From Parcubacteria group bacterium (lineage in GTDB: Bacteria > Patescibacteriota > Minisyncoccia > UBA6257 > Colwellbacteraceae), in assembly GCA_041649415.1 (NCBI GenBank), contig JBAZND010000003.1, forward strand, positions 7,617-31,616: DNA of 24,000 bases. Reading direction: 5' to 3'. Under the pieces are notes generated by a model, which was not told where the DNA came from, did no database searches, and worked only from the letters and a program-made list of their open reading frames with translations. Positions 1-24,000 of this stretch are shown here, piece by piece (the stretch's first letter is position 1; every line of letters begins with the position of its first letter). The position numbers and the translations under genes are program-made.

Positions 1-1401
1 ACAGTTGTTTCTAGGGCGTCTCTCAGATTACCTCCGGACGCCGTAGTCCAAGGGAAAATCAGTAACAGGAATGTGATTTCAGGTGCGCTTCGTGAACTAA
101 GAAACATGATTGACATTCCTTCGTCCCGCAACGCAGAGGTTATTTTATCGCTAGACTCTGGAGCAGTTTATTCCCAGTTATTTAACCTCCCTCAACTTGA
201 CGAATCGTCTCTCGCCGAAGCGGCAGAATTGAACATTCAAATGATTTCGCCGATAGATACGAAAACCTCTTATCACAGCTACCAAGTGGTTGGCAGACCG
301 GAAGCCGTTCCAACAGGCGGATATGAACTGCTCGGCGCGTTCATTAACGCTTCAATCGTTGATAACTGGCTTTCTGTCTGCAAAGAAGCGGGATTTTTGC
401 CCATAGCGGTTGAATTCCAAGCGTTATCCACCGCGCGCGCAGTTTCCGAGATCGGAAACGTCGGAGGTGAGGAAATCGCGCTGGTTATTGACGTTTCAAG
501 CGAAGGGCTGGACCTCGTGATAGTCAAAAATCGCAACCTCTATTTTGATTATTTTTATCCATGGAAACGCATTCAGGGAGAGGATAAGTCAATCTCTATG
601 GATAAATTCAAGCAAATTCTTATTGCCGAAACGGGAAAGGTTATGAATTTTACCCTTTCCAAGTTCAGTGGTGAGACGAAATCCATTTGGGTAAACGCCG
701 AAAATATCGCTGCCGAAATAATCACGGCGCTTAAAACACAATACCCAGCCATACCTATTTCCGAACTTATGGCAAACGGTAACCGTATCCCGCCTCTCTG
801 GCTCCCAGCTCTGGGTGCCGGAAAAAGAGGAATGCTTCTGCGTTCGGAAGACGACCTCATCACTTTAACGCCCAATCGCGTAGTGGAAGAATACGAAGAG
901 GGGCAAATAATTGAAATGGTTAAACTCTGGAGAAACGTTTTTACCATTGCCTTATGCTTTTTCCTCCTCGCTTTTAACTTGGGCGACTTATTTTTAAGAC
1001 AAGTCCGTTTAAATGCCAATAAACAATCGCTTCGCAGTCTTTCAGCGGAAGAATCGCATGAACTCGGGATTCTACGAGGAAAGGCGGATGAATTTAACGG
1101 TCTCGTGACGCTTGTAAGCGCCGCGAAGAACCAAGAAAACAGAATCTATCCGTTTATCTCCAAAATTCTAAATCTTGGAACCAACGTTCAGATAACACGC
1201 CTCTCCTTTCAGGGTCTGGATCAGCCAGTGATTATAAACGGCACCGCGCCCTCGGCCGACGCGGTAATTCAGTTTCAAAAAAGACTCACGGAAACTCCGA
1301 ATATCACCGACTTACAACTTCCGCTTTCTAGCCTCACAACCGCTCCAAACGGCCAGACGGCATTTGTAATGTCATTCCGAATAACTAGTTTGAATTTTTG
1401 A
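1..1401 (+). CDS. Type IV pilus assembly protein, fused PilM-like (actin-like fold) plus PilN-like C-terminal region; 5' end lies upstream of the window
   Basis: Frame 1 is open from nt 1, with no stop before the GTG at 73 listed by the ORF track. PilM-like segments include LVIDVSSEGLDLVIV and AVEFQALSTARAV. One TM helix (VFTIALCFFLLAFNLGDLFL) follows, then a PilN-like extracytoplasmic region. Confidence 0.6.
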   Translation, partial: TVVSRASLRLPPDAVVQGKISNRNVISGALRELRNMIDIPSSRNAEVILSLDSGAVYSQLFNLPQLDESSLAEAAELNIQMISPIDTKTSYHSYQVVGRPEAVPTGGYELLGAFINASIVDNWLSVCKEAGFLPIAVEFQALSTARAVSEIGNVGGEEIALVIDVSSEGLDLVIVKNRNLYFDYFYPWKRIQGEDKSISMDKFKQILIAETGKVMNFTLSKFSGETKSIWVNAENIAAEIITALKTQYPAIPISELMANGNRIPPLWLPALGAGKRGMLLRSEDDLITLTPNRVVEEYEEGQIIEMVKLWRNVFTIALCFFLLAFNLGDLFLRQVRLNANKQSLRSLSAEESHELGILRGKADEFNGLVTLVSAAKNQENRIYPFISKILNLGTNVQITRLSFQGLDQPVIINGTAPSADAVIQFQKRLTETPNITDLQLPLSSLTTAPNGQTAFVMSFRITSLNF

Positions 1402-9674: not shown

Positions 9675-10181
9675 ATGAAACTAATCAAATTAATAAATCC
9701 AGAAAATGTATCTGAGGAAGAAGTAAAGAATTATGAGACACGCGAAGCGGGACGCGCTGTTGTTTTTGACGAAGACGACAAAATAGCACTTCTTTATGTA
9801 CGCCAAGAAGATTATTACAAGCTCCCAGGGGGCGGGATAGAAGACGGAGAAGATGTAAGGGAAGCTCTTAATAGAGAGTGCCTTGAAGAGGCGGGCTGTA
9901 ATATTGATATCACAAATGAATTAGGTTCTATCGTTGAATACAGAAAATCAATGAACCTCAAACAAATTTCTTATTGTTTTATGGCAAAAGTTAAAGGCTC
10001 CAAAGGGGCTCCAAATTTTACCGATGAGGAAGAACAGAGGGGCTTTGAATTGGTCTGGCTATCTTATAAAGAAGCATTGAACGCTTTCGAAAACAGCAAG
10101 ACAACTTTTGATGAAGGAAAATTATATATAATCCCACGAGATAGGGCATTTATAGAAGCGGTAGTCCCTTTCGTTAAATAA
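9675..10181 (+). CDS. NUDIX hydrolase
   Basis: The NUDIX box GGGIEDGEDVREALNRECLEEAGC fits GX5EX7REUXEEXGU. Confidence 0.85.
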   Translation: MKLIKLINPENVSEEEVKNYETREAGRAVVFDEDDKIALLYVRQEDYYKLPGGGIEDGEDVREALNRECLEEAGCNIDITNELGSIVEYRKSMNLKQISYCFMAKVKGSKGAPNFTDEEEQRGFELVWLSYKEALNAFENSKTTFDEGKLYIIPRDRAFIEAVVPFVK

Positions 10182-10192
10182 AATTTTTAATT

Positions 10193-10303
10193 ACACAATA
10201 TCTCTCCCACAAATCATTCATATAACCACTATCTGAAAGGATGGTTATAATATTATTAAGGGATGCGAGCACGTAGGGTAAAATTGCACTATAGGGCGAT
10301 TTT
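10193..10303 (+). promoter_or_regulatory. Conserved intergenic element, copy A (hairpin, then TATAAT, then terminator-like hairpin)
   Basis: 39 of 53 nt are identical in an ungapped alignment of 10193-10245 with 16962-17014, and similarity continues after the TATAAT. Hairpin CTATC-TGAAAG-GATGG lies at 10229-10244 and TATAAT at 10246-10251. Hairpin AAAATTGC/GCGATTTT lies at 10280-10303. Confidence 0.5.
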
Positions 10304-10472
10304 ATCCACCAATTTTTACCATTTCGTAAAAGCTCCTCATATTCGCTAGAATATAGAGGACTTAAAGAAGCTCTTATTAGGCTTAAGCGTAAAGATATAT
10401 CAAATTAACAGGGAAAAGTCCGAGAAAATTAACTCGGACATAGTTTATATTATTTTTTTTATCTATCAAGCT

Positions 10473-10844
10473 ATGATAACTATTAAAACTATTAAAATTG
10501 AAGACATCTGGCAAAAAGATGAAAGAGTTGAAAAATGGAGAAAACTTTTAATTCCCATGATTCAATATGATGTAGAAAAAGCGGATGTAAAATATGATAG
10601 TCAGGATTTAGAACACCAGGTCTTATTCAGACTACTTACGGACGAAAAAATTACAATCCAAAATGCTTTCTATGAACAGAAAGAAATCGTTGTTGAGCGA
10701 ATGAAAATAGCCAAGATCTCCCCAGAAAAGTTGTTTTGTTGGGGAGATGATAGAGAACAAGAAAGTTGGAGAATGGAGTGGGGAAAAGATAAAGAAGAAT
10801 TATTTGCTGTTAGAGGTAAAGAAATTAAAGAAATTATTTTTTAG
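10473..10844 (+). CDS. Hypothetical protein (123 aa), no recognisable motif
   Basis: An ORF in an AT-rich region with a charged, Lys/Glu-rich composition. No recognisable SD or family motif. Support is ORF length and its non-overlapping position only. Confidence 0.4.
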   Translation: MITIKTIKIEDIWQKDERVEKWRKLLIPMIQYDVEKADVKYDSQDLEHQVLFRLLTDEKITIQNAFYEQKEIVVERMKIAKISPEKLFCWGDDREQESWRMEWGKDKEELFAVRGKEIKEIIF

Positions 10845-10947
10845 AGAAATAACATTAAGAAAAGAAAAGGAGATTTGTAAAAATATTATAAAGAATTATC
10901 ACTATATTCATTTATAGAGAAAAATAAATTATTTTATATTGAAAAAG

Positions 10948-11460
10948 ATGATTGAGAAAGAGTTTAAATTCAAAATAGACAATGTGAAAGAGCTGTTTAA
11001 AAAAATAGACGGTGTTAGACCAGAGATCTTTTATTGCAAAGACGAAATATTTGGTAAGGGGCTGGGGTATGAAAAAGAGAAGATCAGAAAAAGGACGATC
11101 ATCTCGCAGAAGGGAACGAAGATAAATTATGAAGGCACTAAATTATTAAAAGTAAAGAATGTTAATCGCGTCAGAGAAAATACATTATCTAAAATCCCCG
11201 TAGGATTCGCCTTGGAGTGTTCCTATGATAAAGTGAGATTTTTATTTAAAAGGGAAAAATATGAAATTACCATAGATATTTATGCTTTCGGTATTTTCTG
11301 CGAGATAGAGGGTGAAGAAAAAACGATAAAAAGAATCGCTAAAAAACTTGGATTCAAAATAGAGGATAATATCCAAACCAACATAGACTCTCTTTATTGT
11401 GAGTGGGCAAAGAAAAATAAAAGGAAAGAACTCTACCACTGGGGATTTGGTAGATTGTAA
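10948..11460 (+). CDS. CYTH-domain protein (triphosphate tunnel metalloenzyme / class IV adenylyl cyclase-like)
   Basis: N-terminal ExExK signature (IEKEFKFKI), IRKRTI, and the C-terminal acidic strand FCEIEGEE. I chose the ATG at 10948 because TATATT at 10935-10940 lies 7 nt upstream. The track uses the TTG at 10939. Confidence 0.6.
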   Translation: MIEKEFKFKIDNVKELFKKIDGVRPEIFYCKDEIFGKGLGYEKEKIRKRTIISQKGTKINYEGTKLLKVKNVNRVRENTLSKIPVGFALECSYDKVRFLFKREKYEITIDIYAFGIFCEIEGEEKTIKRIAKKLGFKIEDNIQTNIDSLYCEWAKKNKRKELYHWGFGRL

Positions 11461-11636
11461 GAATTTTGCATGGTAACGATAGATAAAAATTATGATATGA
11501 GATTTTTTAAAAGCAAATATTCCTTACCTTACAAAATTATTTTAGTTGCGCCATCCTATGACTTATCATCCGGCGAAAAAATATAATGATTACTTCCTTC
11601 GTCCATAATCCAGGTTCGAATTTCCTTGAGTGTGGC

Positions 11637-11687
11637 GAGCCAACTAGAGCTAGCTCAAGATTAGCTGCTTTTGAAGCAAAAACACCT
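11637..11687. repeat. Imperfect direct repeat R1, copy a
   Basis: GAGCCAACTAGAGCTAGCTCAAGATTAGCTGCTTTTGAAGCAAAAACACCT matches 14582-14631 at about 46 of 51 positions by hand alignment, and the first 22 nt are identical. Weaker similarity, including a shared ATCCGGC, extends about 100 nt upstream of both copies. Confidence 0.7.
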
Positions 11688-11820
11688 CTGCAAGATTCAT
11701 CCCTCAAATTAAAGATGATCCAAAAAGGAATAAGGGCAGGCGCTTGAACCAATTCTGAGGCGTTGCGAAGAATTGAGTGAGAGGTGGTTCCCCTTTAGGG
11801 CTGCCAACCTAAAGAATTAG

Positions 11821-11853
11821 TATAAGAAGCCATCAATTGAAGGGCTTCTTATA
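11821..11853 (-). terminator. Hairpin downstream of the minus-strand cassette (possible terminator)
   Basis: TATAAGAAGCC / GGCTTCTTATA 11-bp stem with an 11-nt loop, about 95 nt downstream of the HIT-like stop. The minus-strand trailing sequence is only moderately T-rich (ctaattcttt). Confidence 0.4.
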
Positions 11854-11948
11854 GTTGTAGGGCAACTACCTTTTAAAAATAATTTCTCCCTATCTTTTGT
11901 TCTGCCAAGGCGGAGAGTTTTTATCTGGCTTTTGGGGTACCTGCCAAA

Positions 11949-12599
11949 TTATTTATTCAACTTCAGTTTCTTGAATGTTTCAATTGTTTTTTTAATATCT
12001 GAATAACGATTACTCTTGGAGTCTCTCCATTCATAAGAATTATCATAACCAGCCTGCTGGGCAACAAGTTTTATAAAGCATGATCGGGGAGCATCTTTAA
12101 TAGAATGAGACATATAATAGTGTTTATTCTCAGATCTATACATCCAATAATCTTTGTGCTTCATGTTATGTAAAGAAACTATAGTAGATTGTAATCCCAG
12201 CTCTAATTCATCAAACAACTTTTCTAAATTATCACGGGAAATATTTATAGGAATAATATGTAGGTGTGCATGAGTAATACTGAGTGGATGCCTTCCTTTC
12301 GGTAAGGAACCATGTTCAAAAAATATTGGGTAAGTTCCTATAATTTTATGATATTCATCGCAAATTCTATCTAATAAACCTTCTAGCCTAAATAGATTGC
12401 AAGAATCTAATTCTGCAAACCCATTGATATGTTGTTTTGAGACAACCATTAAATAATTAGGAATGGACATCCCTAATGCTGGTTTAATTAGTACCAAATC
12501 ATTTTCGTAAAGAACTGTATTTTCTGGTTTAGAGCAAAGTTCTTTATCGATTTGATTTACTAAAGAGCAAAACACACAATCTTTCAAAAAGTTCATCAA
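11949..12599 (-). CDS. HIT-superfamily protein with a C-terminal extension (nucleotide hydrolase/transferase-like)
   Basis: CVFCSL near the N-terminus and the histidine triad THAHLHIIP. About 90 aa of extra C-terminal sequence is present. The start overlaps the upstream NUDIX stop by 4 nt. Confidence 0.7.
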   Translation of the reverse strand: MMNFLKDCVFCSLVNQIDKELCSKPENTVLYENDLVLIKPALGMSIPNYLMVVSKQHINGFAELDSCNLFRLEGLLDRICDEYHKIIGTYPIFFEHGSLPKGRHPLSITHAHLHIIPINISRDNLEKLFDELELGLQSTIVSLHNMKHKDYWMYRSENKHYYMSHSIKDAPRSCFIKLVAQQAGYDNSYEWRDSKSNRYSDIKKTIETFKKLKLNK

Positions 12600-13084
12600 T
12601 CCTTTTTGATTATGTGTGTTAAAGTGCCTAATTTGTTGTTCGCCATCAAATCCTTAACAGTGAATGGTCTAAGATCTATTTCTTTCAATTCATCAATAGA
12701 AACCCATTTGATAAATAAGTGTTTTTCTTCACCACGATCGATTTCTATAACTTCTCTGTTAACTGTTTCAATGTCTTCTTCTGGTTCGATAATGTAGTAG
12801 TATTCTACACCATGCTGAACAATTCCTTTTTTCTCATAGAAATTCTCTTGAATACAAAATAGAGTTGCGTTTTTAACAGTGTAATCTAATTCTTCCTTGA
12901 TTTCTCTGGCAACAGCACTAAGAGAATCCTCACCTATTTCAATATGTCCACCTGGAATGTGATAATATGGTGCATTATCCACATTCATAATTAGGAATTT
13001 GTCATTGCGTTTGATAATTCCTACGACTCGATTGTAATAATTATAATCCTCAGTTTTAAATTTAATCTCTTGTTTCATCTTCAA
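12596..13084 (-). CDS. NUDIX hydrolase
   Basis: NUDIX box GGHIEIGEDSLSAVAREIKEELDY. It overlaps both neighbouring genes, which suggests translational coupling. Confidence 0.8.
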   Translation of the reverse strand: MKMKQEIKFKTEDYNYYNRVVGIIKRNDKFLIMNVDNAPYYHIPGGHIEIGEDSLSAVAREIKEELDYTVKNATLFCIQENFYEKKGIVQHGVEYYYIIEPEEDIETVNREVIEIDRGEEKHLFIKWVSIDELKEIDLRPFTVKDLMANNKLGTLTHIIKKD

Positions 13085-13748
13085 TATTTCCTTTTAAAAT
13101 ATTTTCAATTTGTCTTATGTCCATAAAATTATTGGTTGTATCATAAACAATGCTTGCTTTTGCTCCGTTGTTCAGTACGCTATATAAATTCATATGTCGT
13201 AAAATATCAACGCCATACTTTATCCTATTAGAACCAAGTTTTTCCCGTTCCACGAACCTTTCAATAAGAACCGATTCTTCACCCGTTAACATTATAGACA
13301 ATGTTGAATCTTTCCAAATATCTGTTAGTGGTAGTAAAGCATGATTCAATACAATTAAGTCAGGTTTATCAAAAGGACTCCACTTGATTATTTTGCTGTA
13401 TTTAGATATGAAATCTTCATAATCTAAGTCCCTAAAATCGTTTAAAATTTTAAGAATTGTTCTATTCATGTATTCCATTATAACTTTGTACCATTCTATA
13501 TATTCATCAAGAGTTATAATCTTGTCATAAATAACACATCTCAGAAAGTACGTTCTCAAATCTTCATCTTCCTTAATTGGCTCATTGTGAGTAAACTTAA
13601 ACACATTATTTTCGATATCTTCTTCAAAAAACATTGTTCTTAAATACTCTAAGTCCAAAGAAAGACCATTACGCAAAGAAGCAAAGGAATTACACAGTGT
13701 TGTTTTGCCACAACAAGGCAAACCCGCAATACTAATAATTTTTGTCAT
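13062..13748 (-). CDS. P-loop NTPase, putative nucleoside/nucleotide kinase
   Basis: Walker A motif GLPCCGKTT lies 8 aa from the chosen start (MTKIISIAG). AAGGGA lies 5 nt upstream of the ATG at 13748. The track start at 13778 has no RBS. Confidence 0.6.
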   Translation of the reverse strand: MTKIISIAGLPCCGKTTLCNSFASLRNGLSLDLEYLRTMFFEEDIENNVFKFTHNEPIKEDEDLRTYFLRCVIYDKIITLDEYIEWYKVIMEYMNRTILKILNDFRDLDYEDFISKYSKIIKWSPFDKPDLIVLNHALLPLTDIWKDSTLSIMLTGEESVLIERFVEREKLGSNRIKYGVDILRHMNLYSVLNNGAKASIVYDTTNNFMDIRQIENILKGNIEDETRD

Positions 13749-13832
13749 AGAGTCCCTTCTTAATGGATGGTTATTCATTTTACAAGCTATTGTCAGATTG
13801 TTTGAAAAATTATTTAAGGACTATTTTTATGA

Positions 13833-13867
13833 TTTTAAAAAATGTGGGAAGTGGTTACTCACTTCCC
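13833..13867 (-). terminator. Intrinsic terminator or attenuator between the NDK-like and P-loop genes
   Basis: On the minus strand, GGGAAGTG-AGTAAC-CACTTCCC forms an 8-bp stem overlapping the NDK-like stop codon. It is followed by ACATTTTTT. Confidence 0.55.
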
Positions 13868-14377
13868 ATGGTTCCAATCTTGCTTGAGAAGAACAATGAT
13901 AGGTAATGGAACACCAATTCCTTCTTCTCGACATAGAGCCAAAATAGTCGCTGCTCCTTCCGCGTCATCAGGAGTATGCAATCTATTTTCAGCTAGTTTG
14001 TCTTGAAGTGATAGGCCTTTGTAGCCCATCAGGATCAGTTCATCCTTCAAGTGATAGCAAAACCTCTTCCTGATTCCACCCGTATCCATTCTTCCTTTGA
14101 GCTGTCGTAGAACCTCCCAAATATCTGTATTTGTGAGATTCTTGACTACGATAACCATTGAAAGCCCAAATGTGATGGCCTTAACTCTCGAAGAATAAGT
14201 TGGCCCTGCCACTTCCTTTGGATAAATGATATGGGCGACTTCCGGCCTTATTTGCCAGTATTCTTTCCATACTATTTCTAAGCCCCCTTCCTCAAGACAT
14301 CTGATGATGTCATTTTCCAAACCATCCCTGATAGAGTCTGGTTTAAGAATTACTAGTCCATATCGCATTTTTAGCAC
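13859..14377 (-). CDS. Nucleoside diphosphate kinase-like protein
   Basis: GLVILKPD, GIRKRF and NRLHTPDDAEGA align with the NDK motifs LIKPD, GTIRGDF and NxIHGSDSxESA, so the catalytic His is retained. An insertion of about 20 aa precedes the His motif. Confidence 0.6.
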   Translation of the reverse strand: MLKMRYGLVILKPDSIRDGLENDIIRCLEEGGLEIVWKEYWQIRPEVAHIIYPKEVAGPTYSSRVKAITFGLSMVIVVKNLTNTDIWEVLRQLKGRMDTGGIRKRFCYHLKDELILMGYKGLSLQDKLAENRLHTPDDAEGAATILALCREEGIGVPLPIIVLLKQDWNHGK

Positions 14378-14581
14378 CCCCTATGCAAATATCTCGGAGT
14401 GCCCCACACTCCTTTACATCTTTTCATTTTTTAATACAACTTACTTGCTCATAACATAAAATCAAGATAAGGTCAAAGATTAAGGAAAAATAACAGAGTT
14501 AGCCACCATTTATCCCAAATCCGGCACATAGATATACCCCTCTTTTTCTTGTATTATTGTTCTAACGTTGTTTGCAACTCT

Positions 14582-14631
14582 GAGCCAACTAGAGCTAGCT
14601 CAAAATTAGCTATTTTTAATCAAAAACACCT
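14582..14631. repeat. Imperfect direct repeat R1, copy b
   Basis: GAGCCAACTAGAGCTAGCTCAAAATTAGCTATTTTTAATCAAAAACACCT, in the same orientation as 11637-11687. Confidence 0.7.
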
Positions 14632-14721
14632 ATTAGTTAAAGGGGGTTTTGTAGTAAATAAGGACAAACCAAGTATGAACACTACTAAAGAACAGGAACG
14701 AGCGGAACTACATCAAGCCAT

Positions 14722-14750
14722 TTGACAAACACCTAAGAAAGTGCTATTCT
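14722..14750 (+). promoter_or_regulatory. Sigma-70-like promoter upstream of the GC-rich gene
   Basis: TTGACA at 14722-14727, a 17-nt spacer, then TATTCT at 14745-14750. Confidence 0.4.
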
Positions 14751-14806
14751 TAGCTCCGTAAACTTAACAACAAAACAACGCAAACCTCTATTCCCAAAGG
14801 GAATAG

Positions 14807-15436
14807 ATGGCACTGACTAACAGTCAGAGAAAGGAATTCCTTATGAAGTACTCAGAGTTAACCTTAGGCACCGTGGAAGCGGTAGTAAACAAACTCGGTG
14901 GCATGGAGGGGGTACAAGCGTTTCTCCGCGATGAACTCGTTCTGACCAAGAAAACAGGACAGACCTTTCCCCTGCGGCACACCATCAAGCTCGGCACCGA
15001 AGAGACAACCGACGCCTTGAAGGAATCCCTGAAGAAAGCCGGTTGCGATGTCTCCGACTGGGCAAACGACATCATGAACCAGCCCACCTTCACGCTGAGC
15101 AAAAGCGAGAATGAACTGGATCTCGTGGTTTTCTCCCTCGCCGACCTTGGCTTCATCGGAGCCCGCTACAAGAATATCTGTGAGAAGGCCAAAGAGCTGG
15201 GCTTGCAGCTATGTCCTCTCGAAGTCGGACCCCAACTCCGACTGCAGTACGCCGACCAGCCGAAAGGCGAATGGCTCATTATCGCCATGGAGCCGATTGC
15301 CGTTTCGGGTGGCGATCTCGGGGTGTTCGGCGTCGGACGGGGCGACGACGGCGAGCAGTGGCTCAACGGTCACTACGGTCATCCCGGCAGCTTCTGGCGC
15401 AGCAACTACCGCTTCGTGTTTGTGCGTAGCAAGTAG
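14807..15436 (+). CDS. Hypothetical protein encoded by a GC-rich gene, unknown function
   Basis: A 209-aa ORF. Two hand-counted 60-nt lines gave 53% and 58% GC, against about 30-40% in lines from the neighbouring cassette. An 8-bp hairpin (14788-14806) abuts the ATG at 14807. The ATG at 14843, preceded by AAAGGA, is therefore an alternative start. Confidence 0.55.
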   Translation: MALTNSQRKEFLMKYSELTLGTVEAVVNKLGGMEGVQAFLRDELVLTKKTGQTFPLRHTIKLGTEETTDALKESLKKAGCDVSDWANDIMNQPTFTLSKSENELDLVVFSLADLGFIGARYKNICEKAKELGLQLCPLEVGPQLRLQYADQPKGEWLIIAMEPIAVSGGDLGVFGVGRGDDGEQWLNGHYGHPGSFWRSNYRFVFVRSK

Positions 15437-17110: not shown

Positions 17111-19807
17111 ATGCAAAAGGATTGGCATTCAATTTCACTTGAAGAGATTTTTTCCCAAACAGAAAGCAAGAAAGAAGGGCTTGCTACTTCTGAAGTAATC
17201 CAAAAATTAAAAGATTTTGGCCGCAATACTCTTCCGCAGGAAAAACCATATTCAAAAATAAAGCTGTTTTTGGGTCAATTCCATAGTCCTCTGATGTATA
17301 TTCTGCTCTTTACGGTTGTTATTTCGTTTCTCTTAAAACACTATTCGGATACGATATTTATCGCTATTGTGTTGCTTATCAACACCTCTGTCGGATTTTA
17401 TCAGGAAAATAAGGCCAATCAATCGCTTCTTGCCCTGAAGAAAATGGTAAAAATCAGAGCGAAAGTTTTGCGGGATAACTACGAAAAAGAAATAGACAGC
17501 GAGGAACTGGTTATCGGCGATATCGTGTTTTTGAATCGCGGCGATAAAGTGCCAGCTGACGGACGCATCATTGAATCGCGGAGATTAAAGATTAACGAGG
17601 CAAGCCTCACGGGAGAATCTCAAGCAGTTGAGAAAAAAGCGGAAGATATTGTTTCGGAACCGACATCGCTCTCTGAAAGAGTAAATTCCGTTTTTATGAG
17701 CACGATTGTCGAGGAGGGGCAGGCAAAGATGATAGTTGCTGCTACCGGGATTAACACAAAAATAGGCGAAGTCGTATCGCTTCTCAAAAGGACCAAGAAG
17801 CGTAAAACTCCGCTTCAGAAAAAGATTGTATATCTTTCAAGATGGGTTGGTGCATTTATTCTTTCCGTTATTGCAGTCGTTTTAATCGAAGGATATTTTC
17901 TTGAAAAGAATTTTGCCGATGTTTTAGTAGCTTCTCTTGCGTTGGCGGTATCTGCTATCCCCGAAGGTCTTTTGCCAGCTATAACCGTTATTATGGTTTT
18001 GGGGATGAGACGCATCTTCAAGCAACGTGGTCTTGTCAGAAAACTTGCTGCTACAGAAACATTGGGGAGCGTAACCGTTATCTGTACAGACAAGACAGGC
18101 ACTCTCACCGAGGGGAAAATGCAAGTGAGCCATATTTTGACAAGCACAAAAGAACTAATGAGTGATAGCATTAACGGGCTTGCCAAAGATATAAATGTTA
18201 ATGGTATTGAATCACATATTTCTGCGCTCAAAATAGCCACCTTAGCCAATGACGCTTTTATTGAAAATCCAGAAGAGGGTTTACGGGAATGGATAGTGCG
18301 GGGCGGGCCAACAGAAAGGGCATTGCTTTTGGCGGGAATGCAGGCGGGTTTAAACAAGCACGAACTAGAAAAACAATATTCAGTATTGGATAAAATCAGT
18401 TTTGAATCTGATTATAAATTTTCTGCCGCATATAATCGCAAAAACGATAAACAAAACACGCTTTATATTATTGGAGCGCCAGAGGAAGTCATAGCCCGTT
18501 GTGCTGACTTGGATATTGACGGAAAAAACGAGAAGCTAGGATCAGTTCAAGCGGATAAATTGATAAATAAATTAGAGGAACTAACCCAAAAAGGCCTACG
18601 AGTTCTTGCCTGCGCCTATAGGGATTATGATAACGAAACAAAATATCAGAACCTTATTGAATTGGTTAATGGATTATCATTAGTCGGTTTCATTGCACTC
18701 AAAGATCCTCTTCGCCAAGATGCCAAAGAATCAATTTTGATTACCAAAAAAGCCGGCATTCGCACAGTCATCGTTACGGGAGACCATAAACTTACCGCCA
18801 AAACCATTGCCGAAGAAATTGGTTTCGAAGTAAAAGCCGAAAACATAATTGAAGGCAAGGAATTGGAAACAATGAGTGAATTTGAATTAAAAGAGAGATC
18901 AAAATATATCTCTATCTACGCTCGCGTTTCGCCTCGCCATAAATTAAGGATTATTGACGCGCTGCAGGCTAACGGGGAAGTGGTTGCGATGATTGGTGAT
19001 GGCGTTAACGATGCTCCAGCTCTTAAATCCGCCGATATTGGAATTGCTGTTGGCTCCGGTACTGATGTAGCGAAGGAAGTAGCCGATTTGGTATTGCTTG
19101 ACGACAATTTAAAAACCGTGGTTAAGGCAATAGAGCAAGGAAGGGTAATTTTTGGAAATATTAGGAAAGTTTTTGTGTATCTAGTAGCGGACGATTTTTC
19201 AGAGCTTTTTTTATTTTTAGCAAGTATGGCAATGGGATTTCCACTTCCGTTATTGCCAGCTCAGATTCTTTGGATAAACCTTGTTGAGGATGGTCTTCCA
19301 GACATCGCCCTTACCACCGAACAAGAAACAAAAGGAGTAATGGATGAAAGACCAAGAGATCCCAAGGAACCGATATTAAATAAGCCGCTTAAAATCTGGA
19401 TGTCCGCCATTTTCTTTATTACCGGCTTGGCGGCATTTCTGTCTTTTTTCTTATTTTGGAAATTGACCGGAGATTTAGACAAAACGCGAACGATAGTCTT
19501 TATCCTAATGTGCGTTGATTCATTGGTTTTTGCCTTCTGTGTTCGCTCATTTAAAAGACCGATTTTCCGAAAAGACATATTTTCCAATCGCTATTTAATT
19601 GGAGCAGTGATCATATCGTTTATTTTGCTCATTGGGGCCATTTATTTGCCACCCTTACAAAAACTCCTAGTCACTCAACCTTTGTTATTGACGGAGTGGC
19701 TAATAATATTCGGTATTAGTTTTGTAGAAATTTTATTGATAGAATTTTTCAAAAAGAGAATTTTTACCAAAGATTATTCAATGAAAATCCGTGTTAAAGA
19801 AACTTAA
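17111..19807 (+). CDS. P-type cation-transporting ATPase (P2 type, Ca2+/cation ATPase-like)
   Basis: Phosphorylation site CTDKTGTLT, TM4 motif IPEGLPA, TGDH and the hinge GDGVNDAPALKSADIGIAVG. Length is 898 aa with about 10 predicted TM segments. Confidence 0.92.
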   Translation: MQKDWHSISLEEIFSQTESKKEGLATSEVIQKLKDFGRNTLPQEKPYSKIKLFLGQFHSPLMYILLFTVVISFLLKHYSDTIFIAIVLLINTSVGFYQENKANQSLLALKKMVKIRAKVLRDNYEKEIDSEELVIGDIVFLNRGDKVPADGRIIESRRLKINEASLTGESQAVEKKAEDIVSEPTSLSERVNSVFMSTIVEEGQAKMIVAATGINTKIGEVVSLLKRTKKRKTPLQKKIVYLSRWVGAFILSVIAVVLIEGYFLEKNFADVLVASLALAVSAIPEGLLPAITVIMVLGMRRIFKQRGLVRKLAATETLGSVTVICTDKTGTLTEGKMQVSHILTSTKELMSDSINGLAKDINVNGIESHISALKIATLANDAFIENPEEGLREWIVRGGPTERALLLAGMQAGLNKHELEKQYSVLDKISFESDYKFSAAYNRKNDKQNTLYIIGAPEEVIARCADLDIDGKNEKLGSVQADKLINKLEELTQKGLRVLACAYRDYDNETKYQNLIELVNGLSLVGFIALKDPLRQDAKESILITKKAGIRTVIVTGDHKLTAKTIAEEIGFEVKAENIIEGKELETMSEFELKERSKYISIYARVSPRHKLRIIDALQANGEVVAMIGDGVNDAPALKSADIGIAVGSGTDVAKEVADLVLLDDNLKTVVKAIEQGRVIFGNIRKVFVYLVADDFSELFLFLASMAMGFPLPLLPAQILWINLVEDGLPDIALTTEQETKGVMDERPRDPKEPILNKPLKIWMSAIFFITGLAAFLSFFLFWKLTGDLDKTRTIVFILMCVDSLVFAFCVRSFKRPIFRKDIFSNRYLIGAVIISFILLIGAIYLPPLQKLLVTQPLLLTEWLIIFGISFVEILLIEFFKKRIFTKDYSMKIRVKET

Positions 19808-20891: not shown

Positions 20892-22097
20892 ATGAATATT
20901 AACGAATGGTTTTCTCCAGGCGGGCCGGTACAAAACATCTTTCTCTACGCCTTAGGAATCGGAGCGATAATCGCACTGGGAGTTATCATATTCGGAGCAA
21001 TAAAGCATGTTACCTCCGGGGACAGTGAATCTAAACAAAAAGAAGCCAGGGCATGGATATTTGCTGCTGTAAAAGGATTGGCTGTTTTGGCAGGAGGCTT
21101 TGTCATTCTCTCAATTGCCAATCCGGGTCTCTTAGTTATAAATACCGCTCCCCTTGACCTTGTAACGGACATTCTTGCGGTTCCCCCTCCAGTGGATAGC
21201 GCCTTTATTTCAGGCGTTGATCCCGTTACGGGAGAGGCGATATTTGACAGGAACAAAGTTCAGATAGAAGGGAACAAAATAATCATCAAAGAATTGCCGG
21301 AAGGGATGACAGTCAGTTCGGCTATCAGCGAGTTAAAAGCCCGTGTAAAAGACAATAATATTCAGGGAGTTGAATCAATCACGGACGAATCCACTGGAGA
21401 GAATATTCAAATAGTTATTACTACCCAAAGCGGTTTTGACTCCACAGATGTTGCGAATAAACTTCTGGCTCCACAACAAACGGGCAGCATCGGCGGCGGA
21501 AGCACATCGGGCAAAATGGTTTATATCGCTCCTGTCCAATCTTTATTCCAAACGGACAGACGCTGGGTAAATAAAGAAATCGGTCCGGTGCCGAATTGTC
21601 CAAGCCAACACACATACGGCAGAAGAGGATGCGGACCGACATCTCTTGCTATGGTTGTTTTATACCTTACGGGAAATAAATACGTAACAGCGGATAATGC
21701 GGTTACGACCATGGGAGCGAAAATAGTTGAGAGAGGATATAAAAGATGCGCCGGCAGTGAACCAAGCGGTGTATACAAATCGGCCTTTACCGCCAAAGGC
21801 ATACCTGCCAATTTCGGGCTTACATCTTATAACGTCAATAATCAAGCAGGTGCGAAAAAATGTTTTTCGGAGGGAGGAATCATGGTCGGATCAATGGTCA
21901 AATCCAACGACGATAAAAATGACGTAACATGGCATCCAAAATTTACGGATTACGCTCACTATATAGTGGTCAAGGGAATAGATGAAAATAAGAATCTGTT
22001 TTATATAAACGACCCAAACGGAGGGAGAGTTAAATCGTCGGAAATAGCGCATTTCTTTAAACGCAGTAACGTTAGGTGGTGTATTAAAAGAAAATAA
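20892..22097 (+). CDS. Membrane-anchored protein: N-terminal two-helix pilin-like module plus C-terminal C39-like (papain-fold) cysteine peptidase domain
   Basis: The N-terminal helices are IFLYALGIGAIIALGVIIFGAI and AWIFAAVKGLAVLAGGFVILSI, separated by the loop KHVTSGDSESKQKEA, as in VirB2/TrbC-type pilin modules. The C-terminus has RRGCGPTSLAMV (Cys247, codon 21630-21632). It also has YAHYIVVKGIDENKNLFYINDP (His356, codon 21957-21959). Confidence 0.6.
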   Translation: MNINEWFSPGGPVQNIFLYALGIGAIIALGVIIFGAIKHVTSGDSESKQKEARAWIFAAVKGLAVLAGGFVILSIANPGLLVINTAPLDLVTDILAVPPPVDSAFISGVDPVTGEAIFDRNKVQIEGNKIIIKELPEGMTVSSAISELKARVKDNNIQGVESITDESTGENIQIVITTQSGFDSTDVANKLLAPQQTGSIGGGSTSGKMVYIAPVQSLFQTDRRWVNKEIGPVPNCPSQHTYGRRGCGPTSLAMVVLYLTGNKYVTADNAVTTMGAKIVERGYKRCAGSEPSGVYKSAFTAKGIPANFGLTSYNVNNQAGAKKCFSEGGIMVGSMVKSNDDKNDVTWHPKFTDYAHYIVVKGIDENKNLFYINDPNGGRVKSSEIAHFFKRSNVRWCIKRK

Positions 22098-22238: not shown

Positions 22239-22817
22239 ATGGATGAAAAGAAAAAAGCGCCTGCCTCGACTATTATCCTTATCGTTTTGGCATCTCTTCT
22301 CCTTCTTGTCGCTGTCGGGAACACAATCTGTTTTTTAAGCAGAAAAGTCTCGATAAACATCGAATCCGCCAACACAAGCGCAAAAATGAACGCCGCGGGA
22401 ATAGAGATTGCCGGCTCGCTGTCTCCAGACGGCAAATTAGCTCCCGGCGTTTGGGATACGCCCAAACTGATGACTATCAAGAACGTTGGTCTGCTGCCCG
22501 TGAGGTACAAGATTGTTGTTAAAACCGATACTGAATCAATTCCCGATTTTTCGGATGCAATTCTGGTTTGTGTTCGAAAGGCCAACAACGGGACGGCAAA
22601 AAATGGCGATTGGCCGATAATCTATGAGGGGAAATTGAATAGTCTTCTCATTGATTCAGCCGAAATTACAGGGAATCTCGACTCTCGCTCCATACACTGT
22701 CTTGTTTGGGAATTTAAACTCGACGAGACCGTGGATAATATCTTCCAAAACGCCAGGACTTCATTCACTTACGAGTTTATCGTTGCACCGATAAACAATC
22801 TTGGATACTGGCAATAA
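22239..22817 (+). CDS. Secreted TasA/camelysin (peptidase M73)-like protein, divergent member
   Basis: An N-terminal signal anchor (TIILIVLASLLLLVAV) is present. LAPGVWDTPKLMTIKNVGLLPVRY fits the PGD...N.G.L pattern. The C-terminal FQNARTSFTYEFIVAP fits the QN..G.s..f.FxAxQ pattern. AGGAGG lies 8 nt before the ATG. Confidence 0.5.
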   Translation: MDEKKKAPASTIILIVLASLLLLVAVGNTICFLSRKVSINIESANTSAKMNAAGIEIAGSLSPDGKLAPGVWDTPKLMTIKNVGLLPVRYKIVVKTDTESIPDFSDAILVCVRKANNGTAKNGDWPIIYEGKLNSLLIDSAEITGNLDSRSIHCLVWEFKLDETVDNIFQNARTSFTYEFIVAPINNLGYWQ

Positions 22818-22823
22818 CAGCTT

Positions 22824-22848
22824 CCGCACCAATTGGTGCGGTTTTTTT
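22824..22848 (+). terminator. Rho-independent terminator
   Basis: CCGCACC-AATT-GGTGCGG followed by TTTTTTT. Confidence 0.85.
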
Positions 22849-22862
22849 ATCATGAACACCCC

Positions 22863-22976
22863 TTGACGACTTTTTGCAGATATATTACCATTCCCCTTCG
22901 TTTGTCAGTTGCCTTAACAAATTTGCGGAAAGAAGAAGTTAGTCTTGCCACAAGAAATTCAGAGGAGGAAAAGATT
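22863..22976 (+). promoter_or_regulatory. Conserved promoter/leader module L1 upstream of TasA-like gene 2
   Basis: TTGAC, N12, ATATATTACC, TTCCC, GTTTG, GAAGAAG, AGAGGAGGAA and the TTG start occur in the same order as at 23763-23884. Up to position +47 the offsets are also identical. Confidence 0.5.
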
Positions 22977-23672
22977 TTGAAGAACAAGAAAGCCTTTTTG
23001 GCCATTCTGATCGTGCTCGTCATGGTTTTCACCGTCGGCAGTATCGGCGTGGGCGCCAGCTATGTGGACTCGGGGAAGATCACCGGGAATTCATTTGAAG
23101 CCGGCTCGTTGGTCCTGCAGGTCGGGGAATCCGAATCTCTGCCTTTCGCTCTGTCGAATATCAAACCGGGCGATAACGGCGTAGGCGTCGTCACGCTGAC
23201 GAATACCGGCAGCATCGCCGGTAAGCTGTCTATGGACTGGACAAAAACGATTGACGATGAAAACGGCATCCTCGCTCCCGAAGCTAAACAATATCCTAGA
23301 CCCCTTGGCGGCCCCGGGCTGACAACGGGGGACTATGAAGGCAACGGCGGAGAATTGGATATTTTTCTGCAGTTTGCGCCGTATGTCGATCTGAACAGCA
23401 ATAGGGTATTTGACTCCGGAGATATTCAACTCGCCTATAATGGCCAGTTCACCGCCTATCCGGGCTATCGAAGCGGCAACCTGTATTGGTCCGGCCTGAA
23501 TTCCTATGGAGCTCGCTGGACAGACATAAAGATCCTCGCTGCGGGCGCGTCCGTCGATATCGTCATACCTTGGCGGTTCCCGACGGAAACGACGGACAAT
23601 AACTACCATCAAAATATGTCGATGACCGACAGCCTCGGCTTCGACGCGGAGTTCGTTCTCGCGCAGCCCTGA
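22977..23672 (+). CDS. Secreted TasA/camelysin (peptidase M73)-like protein
   Basis: The TTG start at 22977 lies 8 nt after GAGGAGGA. The signal peptide is KNKKAFLAILIVLVMVFTVGSIGVGA. SYVDSGKITGNSFEAGSLVLQV, LSNIKPGDNG, LTNTGSIAGKL and the C-terminal FDAEFVLAQ match TasA-family N- and C-terminal motifs. Confidence 0.7.
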   Translation: MKNKKAFLAILIVLVMVFTVGSIGVGASYVDSGKITGNSFEAGSLVLQVGESESLPFALSNIKPGDNGVGVVTLTNTGSIAGKLSMDWTKTIDDENGILAPEAKQYPRPLGGPGLTTGDYEGNGGELDIFLQFAPYVDLNSNRVFDSGDIQLAYNGQFTAYPGYRSGNLYWSGLNSYGARWTDIKILAAGASVDIVIPWRFPTETTDNNYHQNMSMTDSLGFDAEFVLAQP

Positions 23673-23720
23673 TTCAAGGCCCCGGCAACTGATAAGACTT
23701 CTTCTTACCGCCTTCCCAAG

Positions 23721-23747
23721 ACCCCTCCTTCACAAAGAGGGGTTTTT
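23721..23747 (+). terminator. Rho-independent terminator
   Basis: ACCCCTC / GAGGGGT stem with a 9-nt loop, followed by TTTTT. Confidence 0.8.
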
Positions 23748-23762
23748 CATAATTTATACTTG

Positions 23763-23884
23763 TTGACAGACATCTAAATATATATTACCCTTCCCGCTGG
23801 TTTGCTGGTTATTTAATAATGCAAATACGGGAGAAGAAGAAAATTTTGTCCTATAAAACAATACTTAAGAGGAGGAATAATATC
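23763..23884 (+). promoter_or_regulatory. Conserved promoter/leader module L2 upstream of TasA-like gene 3
   Basis: A paralogous copy of 22863-22976, starting exactly 900 nt downstream of L1. AGAGGAGGAA is followed by the TTG start at 23885. Confidence 0.5.
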
Positions 23885-24000
23885 TTGAAGAACGGCAAAA
23901 AGATCCTATTCGCCGGCCTACTCGCCGCCATAGTGATTATCGGGAGCATCGGCACGGCTGCAAGCTTCAGTGACATCGGCACCTCCATCGGCAACTATTT
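23885..24000 (+). CDS. Secreted TasA/camelysin-like protein, 5' fragment (continues beyond the window)
   Basis: The TTG start follows GAGGAGGA. The sequence KNGKKILFAGLLAAIVIIGSIGTAASFSDIGTSIGNY has the signal peptide and the A-SFSD...GN motif typical of the family. Confidence 0.6.
   Translation, partial: MKNGKKILFAGLLAAIVIIGSIGTAASFSDIGTSIGNY

What the first reader, a model, noticed from the sequence alone, without database searches (positions are those of the whole stretch)
22239..24000. Tandem array of at least three TasA/camelysin-like secreted proteins: a candidate surface-fibre locus
Three consecutive + strand genes encode proteins with an N-terminal signal peptide. After it comes the A-(S/Y)-(F/V)-(S/D)-D...GN-(S/Y)-F-x-AG-(S/T)-L motif, then PGD...N-(T/V)-G and a C-terminal F-x-F-x-A-Q-like strand. 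These are the hallmarks of the TasA/peptidase M73 fold. That fold polymerises by donor-strand complementation in Bacillus biofilm fibres and in archaeal bundling pili. Each gene has its own terminator. Genes 2 and 3 are clear paralogs, gene 1 is divergent, and the array continues past the window. No SipW-type signal peptidase is visible here; the only signal peptidase is the housekeeping lepB at 1981. In an organism that probably lives attached to other cells, such fibres could mediate attachment. I am not aware of this being characterised in this kind of genome.
Basis: partly seen in the sequence, partly recalled or inferred. Interest (0 to 1): 0.7.

Follow-up and report, generated by a model that had tools for sequence, protein, structure and literature searches.

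The report
TasA-like fibre gene cluster in Parcubacteria
An uncultured ultrasmall (Parcubacteria/CPR) bacterium carries a five-gene cluster of three TasA-type secreted subunits, a dedicated signal peptidase and a membrane accessory protein. This is the layout known from Bacillus biofilm fibres and archaeal "tafi" pili, so it is a new example of a known kind, not a new system.

Summary
Three consecutive + strand genes lie at 22239-22817 (g1), 22977-23672 (g2) and 23885 to the window end (g3). Each product starts with a hydrophobic leader.

g2 and g3 pass the Pfam gathering score for PF12389 (TasA/camelysin) and are paralogues (29% identity, E 1e-14). The three best PDB fold matches of the g2 model are TasA. 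g1 has no direct hit, but its relatives are PF12389 proteins.

The longer source contig (a Parcubacteria MAG) changes one point. This is g4, an archaeal/ER-type signal peptidase I of the SipW class, with four membrane segments and a second outer domain, like haloarchaeal TafD. It is translationally coupled to g5, a 505-aa two-TM protein with a weak DUF5305 match (TafG-like).

A sister genome keeps all five genes. Related CPR and Chloroflexia loci always pair the TasA-like gene with such a peptidase.

The best reading is a Sec-exported, peptidase-processed fibre that assembles by donor-strand exchange. Polymerisation is inferred, not shown. PF12389 homologues in Patescibacteria were already reported (PMC9245690), so I rate it a new member of a known kind, of moderate interest.

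The parts
22239..22817 (+). g1: divergent TasA-family protein (192 aa) with an N-terminal hydrophobic segment (residues 9-27) and a degenerate SipW-type cleavage motif. Candidate minor, initiator or anchor subunit.
   Evidence: No direct Pfam hit. A profile search gave 25 hits at E<=0.001, one of them the sister orthologue already in the query, so 24 new relatives. In the 25-sequence g1 alignment, 14 hit PF12389. hhalign of the g1 family against the g2 family gave 98.6%, and against g3 97% over 173 columns. The family profile hits TasA 8AUR/5OF1 at E 1e-6. The AF2 model is a beta-sandwich with pLDDT 79.9, and the bundling pilin AbpA (7UEG) is its second-best PDB match.
22824..22848 (+). Intrinsic-terminator-like hairpin plus T-run after g1
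   Evidence: CCGCACCAATTGGTGCGG followed by TTTTTTT. Folding energy -13.3 kcal/mol, z -4.7.
22863..22895 (+). Promoter-like box upstream of g2 (TTGACG, 17 nt, TACCAT), overlapping the shared element ATATATTACCATTCCC
   Evidence: The same box precedes g3 and both orthologues in the sister genome.
22977..23672 (+). g2: TasA/camelysin-family secreted subunit (231 aa) with a conserved insert that includes a DxNxDG-like loop
   Evidence: PF12389 24.4 bits vs gathering score 22.5. 15 sequence clusters were found including its own, so 14 orthologues. AF2 pLDDT 74.4. Foldseek top three PDB matches are TasA 5OF2/5OF1, E 5e-4 to 8e-4, TM 0.36-0.51.
23699..23747 (+). 30-nt element (repeated exactly after g3) that runs into the terminator hairpin and T-run after g2
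   Evidence: Exact repeat at L001 11461-11490 and 12285-12314. Hairpin -14.1 kcal/mol, z -3.5.
23763..23795 (+). Promoter-like box upstream of g3 (TTGACA, 17 nt, TACCCT) with the shared element ATATATTACCCTTCCC
23885..24000 (+). g3: 5' part of a second TasA/camelysin-family subunit. The full gene is 201 aa, L001 11647-12252, which corresponds to window positions 23885-24490.
   Evidence: PF12389 33.7 bits over residues 10-194. TIGR04088 SipW-dependent signal peptide 18.1 bits vs cut-off 19. Paralogue of g2. Downstream and outside the window lie g4, a SipW-class peptidase (L001 12451-13392), and g5, DUF5305-like (L001 13389-14906).

Best explanation
The window's 3' end is the first half of a five-gene cluster, g1 to g5, for a TasA/Tafi-type extracellular fibre in a Parcubacteria (CPR) bacterium.

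Proposed mechanism:
1. g2 and g3, and probably g1, are made with Sec-type leaders. Each of g2 and g3 has its own promoter-like box and terminator, which would allow high and independent expression of the subunits.
2. g4 removes the leaders. It is a dedicated archaeal/ER-type (Ser-His) signal peptidase I of the SipW class, and it carries a second extracytoplasmic domain and four membrane segments.
3. g5 is translationally coupled to g4. It is a two-TM, DUF5305-like protein and would act as a peptidase accessory.
4. Cleavage frees an N-terminal beta-strand on each mature jelly-roll subunit. That strand inserts into the next subunit (donor-strand exchange), building a fibre outside the cell.
5. 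g1 has lost the canonical cleavage motif that its own relatives keep. It is proposed to be a minor subunit, either an initiator or a membrane-proximal anchor.

Shown here: family membership of g2 and g3, membership of g1 through its relatives, the class and conserved catalytic motifs of the peptidase, and conservation of the cluster.

Inferred: cleavage by g4, polymerisation, the role of g1, and any function in attachment to surfaces or host cells.
For: - Subunits. PF12389 scores above its gathering score for g2 and g3. TasA structures are the top three PDB fold matches of the g2 model.
- g1. It links to the family through the g1-family alignment, in which 14 of 25 sequences hit PF12389. hhalign gives 98.6% against the g2 family and 97% against g3, and the profile hits TasA at E 1e-6, including the C-terminal NxYQG...F.F.ATQ motif.
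- g4. TIGR02228 76.1 bits vs cut-off 51.85. The SipW model gives 58 bits, well below its 190-bit equivalog cut-off. SEC11A/C match at E 4e-5 with SxSMxP, VHR and KGDxN aligned. There are four hydrophobic segments.
- g5. It overlaps g4 by 4 nt and has TM segments at both ends. Its DUF5305 hit is weak (18.5 bits vs gathering score 29).
- Conservation. The whole cassette and its flanks are kept in sister MAG GCA_041649615.1 at 50-78% protein identity.
- Linkage. Every g2-orthologue locus, in Parcubacteria, Saccharibacteria, Buchananbacteria and Chloroflexia MAGs, has an S26 peptidase gene directly downstream. So does a locus holding a g1-type relative.
- Literature. TasA polymerises by donor-strand exchange (PMC9674648). 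The haloarchaeal Tafi cluster has a two-domain, four-TM peptidase TafD that is required for TafA processing, plus the DUF5305 protein TafG (PMC11821415). DUF5305 is proposed to be a peptidase accessory and occurs in AbpX and Tafi loci (bioRxiv 10.64898/2026.01.04.697558; PMC12337348).
Against: - No multimer prediction or experiment was possible, so polymerisation is not shown.
- Fold similarity of g2 to TasA is modest (TM 0.36-0.51, rmsd 7-9 A). Its Pfam match covers only residues 23-81.
- Neither the g2-family profile nor g3 hits TasA in the PDB by sequence.
- The best PDB match of the g1 model is an unrelated jelly-roll (EphA7), and TasA is not in its top 50. With only g1 and its sister sequence, hhalign against g3 gives 12%.
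- The signal-peptide model TIGR04088 is just below its cut-off for g3 and gives no hit for g2 or g1.
- The DUF5305 assignment of g5 is below threshold and is seen in only 1 of its 4 homologues.
- No TapA-like protein, sortase or wall anchor is in the cluster.
Confidence: 0.65

Rival explanations
1. The three proteins are secreted or surface-bound monomers, such as adhesins, matrix-binding or wall-associated proteins. They use the TasA jelly-roll and a dedicated peptidase but do not form fibres.
For: Only family membership and peptidase linkage are shown. Monomeric TasA exists as a stable globular protein (5OF1, matched). Many PF12389 proteins have not been studied. In related CPR loci the same leader motif heads large LTD-domain proteins that look like adhesins, not pilins.
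Against: Among the papers read here, the studied relatives that sit with a dedicated SipW-class peptidase form fibres: TasA (PMC9674648) and Tafi (PMC11821415, PMC12337348). AbpX, whose loci often carry such a peptidase, also forms fibrils (10.64898/2026.01.04.697558). Several paralogous small subunits, each with its own promoter and terminator, fit a major and minor pilin arrangement.
Confidence: 0.2
2. They are camelysin-type secreted metalloproteases (the MEROPS M73 reading of PF12389), used to degrade host or environmental proteins.
For: PF12389 is named after the camelysin metallo-endopeptidase of Bacillus cereus (cited in PMC9245690).
Against: No HExxH motif is present, and g1, g2 and g3 hold only 1, 1 and 2 histidines. 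TasA itself has been suggested to be an inactivated camelysin-like protein (PMC9245690). The conserved residues of the g2 family are structural or calcium-loop-like, not a metal-protease site.
Confidence: 0.05
3. g1 is not part of the system. It would be an unrelated small membrane protein that happens to lie upstream, so the array has only two TasA-like genes.
For: g1 has no direct Pfam or NCBIfam hit. It has no significant pairwise similarity to g2 or g3. It has its own strong terminator. hhalign of g1 plus its sister alone against g3 gives 12%.
Against: g1 matches P0018 at 105 bits, E 4e-25 in the profile search (34% identity by tblastn). P0018 is a PF12389 protein, as are others among the 24 relatives found. 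The family profile aligns over its full length to g3 (97%) and to TasA. The position of g1 next to g2 is kept in the sister genome.
Confidence: 0.1

Closest known systems
Bacillus subtilis tapA-sipW-tasA operon (TasA biofilm fibres; B. cereus sipW-tasA-calY)
   Same: The subunits belong to the same Pfam family (PF12389). They share the N-terminal leader motif (A-x-F-x-D ... F-x-AG-x-L) and the C-terminal F-x-F-x-A-Q strand. A dedicated ER/archaeal-type signal peptidase I is encoded in the same cluster. More than one paralogous subunit occurs, as in B. cereus TasA/CalY.
   Different: No TapA homologue is present. The peptidase is 313 aa with four TM segments and a second outer domain, whereas I recall SipW as about 190 aa (from memory, not checked here). 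A DUF5305-like partner gene is present. Sequence identity to TasA is very low, and g2 and g3 do not hit TasA directly in the PDB. The host is a CPR bacterium, not a Firmicute.
Haloarchaeal Tat-fimbriae (Tafi; tafA-tafG) and related Thermococcales/Archaeoglobales clusters (PMC11821415, PMC12337348)
   Same: Small paralogous beta-rich subunits assemble by strand donation. The peptidase TafD has an N-terminal Ser/His S26 domain, four TM helices and a second outer domain of unknown function, which matches the layout of g4. There is a DUF5305 protein (TafG) next to the peptidase, which matches the position and topology of g5.
   Different: Tafi subunits of haloarchaea carry Tat signals. g1-g3 have lysine-rich n-regions with no twin arginine. 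Homology of g1-g3 to TafA or TafE was not tested here. The DUF5305 match of g5 is below threshold. No TafB-like regulator or TafF-like anchor was found.
AbpA/AbpX archaeal bundling pili and biomatrix fibrils, and Pyrodictium cannulae (PMC9245690; bioRxiv 10.64898/2026.01.04.697558 and 10.1101/2024.12.30.630787)
   Same: These are TasA-related jelly-roll subunits that polymerise by donor-strand complementation. AbpX-like loci often hold minor subunits, a signal peptidase I and a DUF5305 accessory. AbpA (7UEG) and cannula (9H8B) subunits are among the PDB fold matches of the g1 model. Calcium dependence is reported for AbpX and cannulae, and g2 and g3 carry a DxNxDG-like loop.
   Different: The AbpX-associated peptidase is described with ten TM helices, not four. 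AbpA in Pyrobaculum has no dedicated peptidase. Structural similarity here is weak (TM 0.35-0.45).

Membership tests
TasA/camelysin family (Pfam PF12389 Peptidase_M73) | Match to the family HMM above the curated gathering score | tested here: met
   g2 scores 24.4 bits vs gathering score 22.5, covering residues 23-81 only. g3 scores 33.7 bits over residues 10-194. g1 has no hit itself, but 14 of the 25 sequences in the g1 alignment hit the family, best E 8e-11.
TasA/camelysin family (Pfam PF12389 Peptidase_M73) | Jelly-roll fold resembling the TasA structure | tested here: met
   The g2 AF2 model (pLDDT 74.4, pTM 0.70) has 5OF2, 5OF1_B and 5OF1_A as its top three PDB matches (E 5e-4 to 8e-4, probability 0.99-1.00, TM 0.36-0.51). 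The g1 model (pLDDT 79.9) gives only generic jelly-roll matches, with AbpA 7UEG second and TasA not in the top 50. The feature is therefore met for g2, inconclusive for g1 and not modelled for g3.
TasA/camelysin family (Pfam PF12389 Peptidase_M73) | SipW-dependent-type signal peptide (TIGR04088) | tested here: inconclusive
   g3 scores 18.1 bits vs cut-off 19. g2 and g1 have no hit at E<=1. By eye the motif is present in g2 (VGA-SYVDSGKITGNSFEAGSL) and g3 (TAA-SFSDIGTSIGNYFQAGSL), and degenerate in g1.
TasA/camelysin family (Pfam PF12389 Peptidase_M73) | Cognate SipW-class (archaeal/ER-type, Ser-His) signal peptidase I encoded in the locus | tested here: met
   g4 (L001 12451-13392) scores 76.1 bits on TIGR02228 vs cut-off 51.85. 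The Bacillus SipW equivalog model gives 58 bits, below its 190 cut-off. SEC11A/C match at E 4e-5 with the Ser, His and Asp motifs aligned. The gene lies outside the window.
TasA/camelysin family (Pfam PF12389 Peptidase_M73) | Polymerisation into fibres by donor-strand exchange | not testable with these tools
   No multimer prediction is available. In the g2 monomer model the presumed donor segment (residues 20-37) has pLDDT below 50.
B. subtilis-type tapA-sipW-tasA operon | TapA-like nucleator/anchor protein in the operon | tested here: not met
   None of the five products, nor the neighbouring genes, gave a TapA-type family hit in Pfam or NCBIfam. g1 may fill an analogous role, but that is inference.
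Tafi-type cluster (tafA-tafG) | Two-domain signal peptidase with four TM helices (TafD-like) | tested here: met
   The S26 domain covers residues 13-151. Hydrophobic segments lie at 11-29, 135-153, 172-190 and 280-298, with an outer segment of about 90 aa between the last two. This was compared with the published description of TafD (PMC11821415), not with its sequence.
Tafi-type cluster (tafA-tafG) | DUF5305 (TafG-like) protein next to the peptidase | tested here: inconclusive
   g5 scores 18.5 bits on PF17231, E 0.0015, below the gathering score of 29, and only 1 of its 4 homologues hits. Its topology (N-terminal TM, large outer domain, second TM, cytoplasmic tail of about 90 aa) and its 4-nt overlap with g4 fit the published description.
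Tafi-type cluster (tafA-tafG) | Tat (twin-arginine) signal on the subunits | tested here: not met
   The N-termini are MDEKKKAP..., MKNKKAF... and MKNGKKIL..., with no RR motif. Sec-type variants of Tafi subunits are known in non-halophiles (PMC12337348).
Camelysin-type metalloprotease (MEROPS M73) | Metal-binding catalytic motif or protease activity | tested here: not met
   No HExxH motif. g1, g2 and g3 hold 1, 1 and 2 histidines. Activity itself cannot be tested here.

The most novel reading that the evidence does not exclude
CPR/Parcubacteria cells, for which only type IV pili have been studied experimentally in the papers found here, may build a second kind of appendage. This would be an archaeal-style (Tafi/AbpX-like) donor-strand fibre made of two different major subunits (g2, g3). 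It would be held to the cell by g1, a TasA-family subunit that has lost its cleavage motif and stays in the membrane as the fibre's base. Such a fibre could mediate attachment to host cells, possibly in a calcium-dependent way.
Probability: 0.15. Interest if true: 0.7.

Novelty: new member of a known kind. Interest (0 to 1): 0.4.

Why it matters
In the papers I found, experimental work on how CPR/Patescibacteria bind their hosts concerns type IV pili. A complete and conserved TasA/Tafi-type fibre cluster in Parcubacteria gives a second, concrete candidate for attachment or matrix formation, and one that could be tested.

The cluster also shows that the archaeal-style module (a four-TM, two-domain signal peptidase with a DUF5305-like partner) occurs together with PF12389 subunits in CPR bacteria. 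That bears on how this fibre system spread between archaea and monoderm bacteria.

The finding extends a known family. The presence of the family in Patescibacteria was already recorded.

Tried and rejected
- Direct sequence searches of g3 and of the g2-family profile against the PDB found nothing at E<=1.
- Pairwise BLASTP of g1 against g2 and g3 was not significant. hhalign using only g1 and its sister sequence against g3 gave 12%. g1 could be placed only through the deeper profile search.
- g5 is not homologous to the roughly 435-aa LTD proteins that hold the same position in other CPR loci. The third component of these clusters therefore varies.
- The word-based homologue search found only 2 sequences for g1 and 4 for g5.
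- An Rfam scan of the intergenic leaders and terminators found nothing meaningful.
- The metalloprotease reading was rejected for lack of any HExxH motif.
- I considered whether g1's altered motif proves it is uncleaved and rejected that conclusion. T-I-C before F still fits the small-residue rule at positions -3 and -1, so cleavage cannot be excluded from sequence alone.
Full report
**What is in the window**

The last 1.8 kb of the window carries three consecutive + strand genes.
- g1 is 22239-22817 (192 aa).
- g2 is listed mechanically from 22833. Its real start is most likely TTG 22977, 8 nt after GGAGGA, giving 231 aa and ending at 23672. Gene calls on two other assemblies use this start, and the longer ORF would run through g2's own promoter-like box.
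- g3 starts at TTG 23885 and is cut by the window end.

Each product begins with a lysine-rich stretch and one hydrophobic segment. g1 keeps only the later ones: LAPGVW, NVG-LPVRY and the C-terminal FTYEFIVAP.

Hairpin plus T-run terminators follow g1 (22824-22841, -13.3 kcal/mol, z -4.7) and g2 (23718-23746, -14.1 kcal/mol, z -3.5). A third follows g3 outside the window.

**Source and extension**

An exact-sequence look-up of g1 found the same DNA on a 46.9-kb ENA contig (L001; window coordinate = L001 coordinate + 12238) and on a Logan contig. NCBI names the protein as from a 'Parcubacteria group bacterium' MAG.

The rest of the window is ordinary chromosome: LepB at 1825-2508, HisRS, FtsA, FtsZ and others.

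On L001, g3 is 201 aa (11647-12252). After its terminator come two further genes.
- g4 (12451-13392, 313 aa).
- g5 (13389-14906, 505 aa), which overlaps g4 by 4 nt.

A convergent gene then closes the cluster. The array is therefore exactly three paralogues, and the locus has five genes.

**Family assignment of the subunits**

- g3 matches PF12389 (Peptidase_M73: TasA/camelysin) at 33.7 bits over nearly its whole length. It scores 18.1 bits against a cut-off of 19 on the SipW-dependent signal-peptide model TIGR04088.
- g2 matches PF12389 at 24.4 bits (gathering score 22.5), in its N-terminal part only.
- g2 and g3 are 29% identical (E 1e-14).
- An AlphaFold model of g2, built on 14 orthologues, has pLDDT 74.4 and pTM 0.70. 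Its three best PDB matches by Foldseek are the TasA crystal structures, at E 5e-4 to 8e-4 and TM 0.36-0.51. This is the right fold and the right best hit, but a distant one.
- By sequence alone, neither g3 nor the g2 profile reaches TasA in the PDB.

g1 has no family hit of its own and no significant pairwise similarity to g2 or g3. It was placed through its relatives.
- A full HMMER search of 1.84 billion representatives with g1 plus its sister orthologue gave 25 hits, 24 of them new. The nearest new relative, P0018, scores 105 bits (E 4e-25), is 34% identical by tblastn, and is a PF12389 protein.
- Of the 25 sequences in the g1 alignment, 14 hit PF12389.
- The family profile aligns to the g2 family at 98.6% probability and to g3 at 97% over 173 columns.
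- It also hits TasA (8AUR fibre, 5OF1) at E 1e-6, including the C-terminal NKYQG...FSFEATQ strand.
- The g1 model (pLDDT 79.9) is a beta-sandwich. Its PDB matches are generic jelly-rolls. The bundling pilin AbpA (7UEG) is second and the Pyrodictium cannula subunit (9H8B) is 26th.

g1 is therefore a genuine but divergent member of the family.

Its relatives carry the canonical GA-x-FTD leader motif. g1 and its sister orthologue have GNTICFLSRKVSI at that position. Whether g1 is still cleaved cannot be decided from sequence.

**The peptidase and its partner**

g4 scores 76.1 bits on TIGR02228 (archaeal-type signal peptidase I, cut-off 51.85). It scores 58 bits on the Bacillus SipW model, well below that model's 190-bit equivalog cut-off. 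It aligns to human SEC11A/C at E 4e-5 with SESMVP, VHR and KGDAN in register. It is thus a Ser-His, ER/archaeal-type enzyme, distinct from the LepB in the window.

g4 has four hydrophobic segments (11-29, 135-153, 172-190, 280-298), with an extra outer stretch of about 90 aa between the last two. This is the architecture published for TafD, the peptidase needed to process the haloarchaeal Tafi pilin (PMC11821415).

g5 has TM segments at 8-26 and 399-417. Its hit to DUF5305 is weak and below threshold (18.5 bits vs 29). DUF5305 proteins (TafG) sit beside such peptidases in Tafi and AbpX loci, are sometimes fused to them, and are proposed to be peptidase accessories. The position and topology of g5 fit this, but its membership is not established.

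**Conservation**

A sister MAG (GCA_041649615.1) keeps g1-g5 and both flanks, with protein identities of 64, 78, 77, 61 and 50%.

g2 orthologues are rare: 14 further clusters among 5.8 billion, and five of 185,579 species genomes. Those five are labelled Parcubacteria, Saccharibacteria, Buchananbacteria, Chloroflexia, and one MAG labelled Pseudomonadales that I suspect is misbinned.

In every such locus an S26 peptidase gene follows directly. It is often followed by a protein of about 435 aa with a lamin-tail domain that carries the same leader motif. A g1-type relative in another MAG has the same layout.

The link between subunit and dedicated peptidase is therefore the conserved core. The third component varies, and g5 is unrelated to the LTD proteins.

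**Mechanism**

By analogy with TasA (PMC9674648) and with Tafi, AbpA and AbpX, the most likely function is a Sec-exported fibre. g4 would cleave the leaders, and the subunits would join by donor-strand exchange. g2 and g3 would be the main subunits, and g1 a minor one (initiator or anchor).

Only the family, peptidase and synteny parts of this are shown. Cleavage, polymerisation and any role in attachment are inferred. I put about 0.65 on the fibre reading, 0.2 on non-polymerising surface proteins, and 0.05 on a protease role (no HExxH).

**Novelty**

Wang et al. 2022 (PMC9245690) already list Patescibacteria among phyla with PF12389 homologues. No other paper in the library links TasA-like proteins with CPR.

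The cluster is a new member of a known kind. Its mildly new aspects are the Tafi-like four-TM peptidase with a DUF5305-like partner in a CPR bacterium, and the altered leader of g1.

Noticed in passing
window 23699-23728 and L001 12285-12314 (after g3); window 22880-22895 and 23780-23795: g2 and g3 are only 29% identical as proteins. Even so, they share an exact 30-nt element (TTCTTCTTACCGCCTTCCCAAGACCCCTCC) that runs into their terminators. They also share a promoter-like box (TTGACR, 12 nt, ATATATTACCMTTCCC) followed by a similar leader of about 100 nt. The boxes and leaders are also recognisable in the sister genome. This suggests either gene conversion of the flanks or a conserved regulatory element. 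Rfam has no match.
   Followed up: partly
window 20892-22097 (+): The gene directly upstream of g1 encodes a 401-aa protein with three parts: a T4SS-pilin-like N-terminal TM region (PF18895, 24.5 bits), a piece of about 75 aa that matches GyrA/ParC (PF00521, 36.8 bits, above the gathering score), and a C-terminal Peptidase_C39_2 domain. The sister genome has two paralogues of it in tandem (57% and 31% identity). Its function, and any link to the fibre cluster, are unknown.
   Followed up: partly
window g2 residues ~136-149 (YVDLNSNRVFDSGD); g3 FVDNDRSGWISAGD (L001): The g2 family has a strongly conserved insert (YPRPxGxPGxTTGDYxGNGGELD...FVDVNKDGxFNxGDIQLAY) with a DxNxDG-type loop that resembles EF-hand or dockerin calcium sites. 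g3 has a similar loop. Calcium-dependent assembly is reported for AbpX and cannulae. No calcium-site model was tested here.
   Followed up: no
window 17111-19807 (+) and L001 15477-17330 (-): P-type ATPase genes lie near both ends of the cluster. About 2.4 kb upstream of g1 is a PMR1/SERCA-like Ca2+-ATPase (TIGR01522, 598.6 bits, below its equivalog cut-off of 798.3), next to a TspO gene. Downstream, just after the convergent 133-aa gene that closes the cluster, is a 617-aa E1-E2 ATPase. This may be coincidence, but it is worth noting given the possible calcium loops in g2 and g3.
   Followed up: no
window ~10000-14000: G+C drops to 31-32% here, against 42-51% elsewhere in the window. The stretch includes ordinary genes (NUDIX, an AAA_18 kinase-like gene, NDK on the - strand). 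The cause was not examined.
   Followed up: no
L003 9422-10729, L005 9412-10725, L015 7190-8503: In other CPR loci the gene after the SipW-like peptidase encodes a protein of about 435 aa with a lamin-tail domain. Its N-terminus carries the same SipW-type leader and TasA-like motif (for example SSTNSYFTDTATITGNSFSTG). It is a likely tip or adhesin substrate of the same peptidase. L015 also has a sortase gene about 2 kb further on.
   Followed up: partly
window 73-1401 (+): A 442-aa protein whose C-terminus matches PilN (22.9 bits, just above the gathering score). This hints that type IV pilus assembly genes are also nearby in this genome.
   Followed up: no
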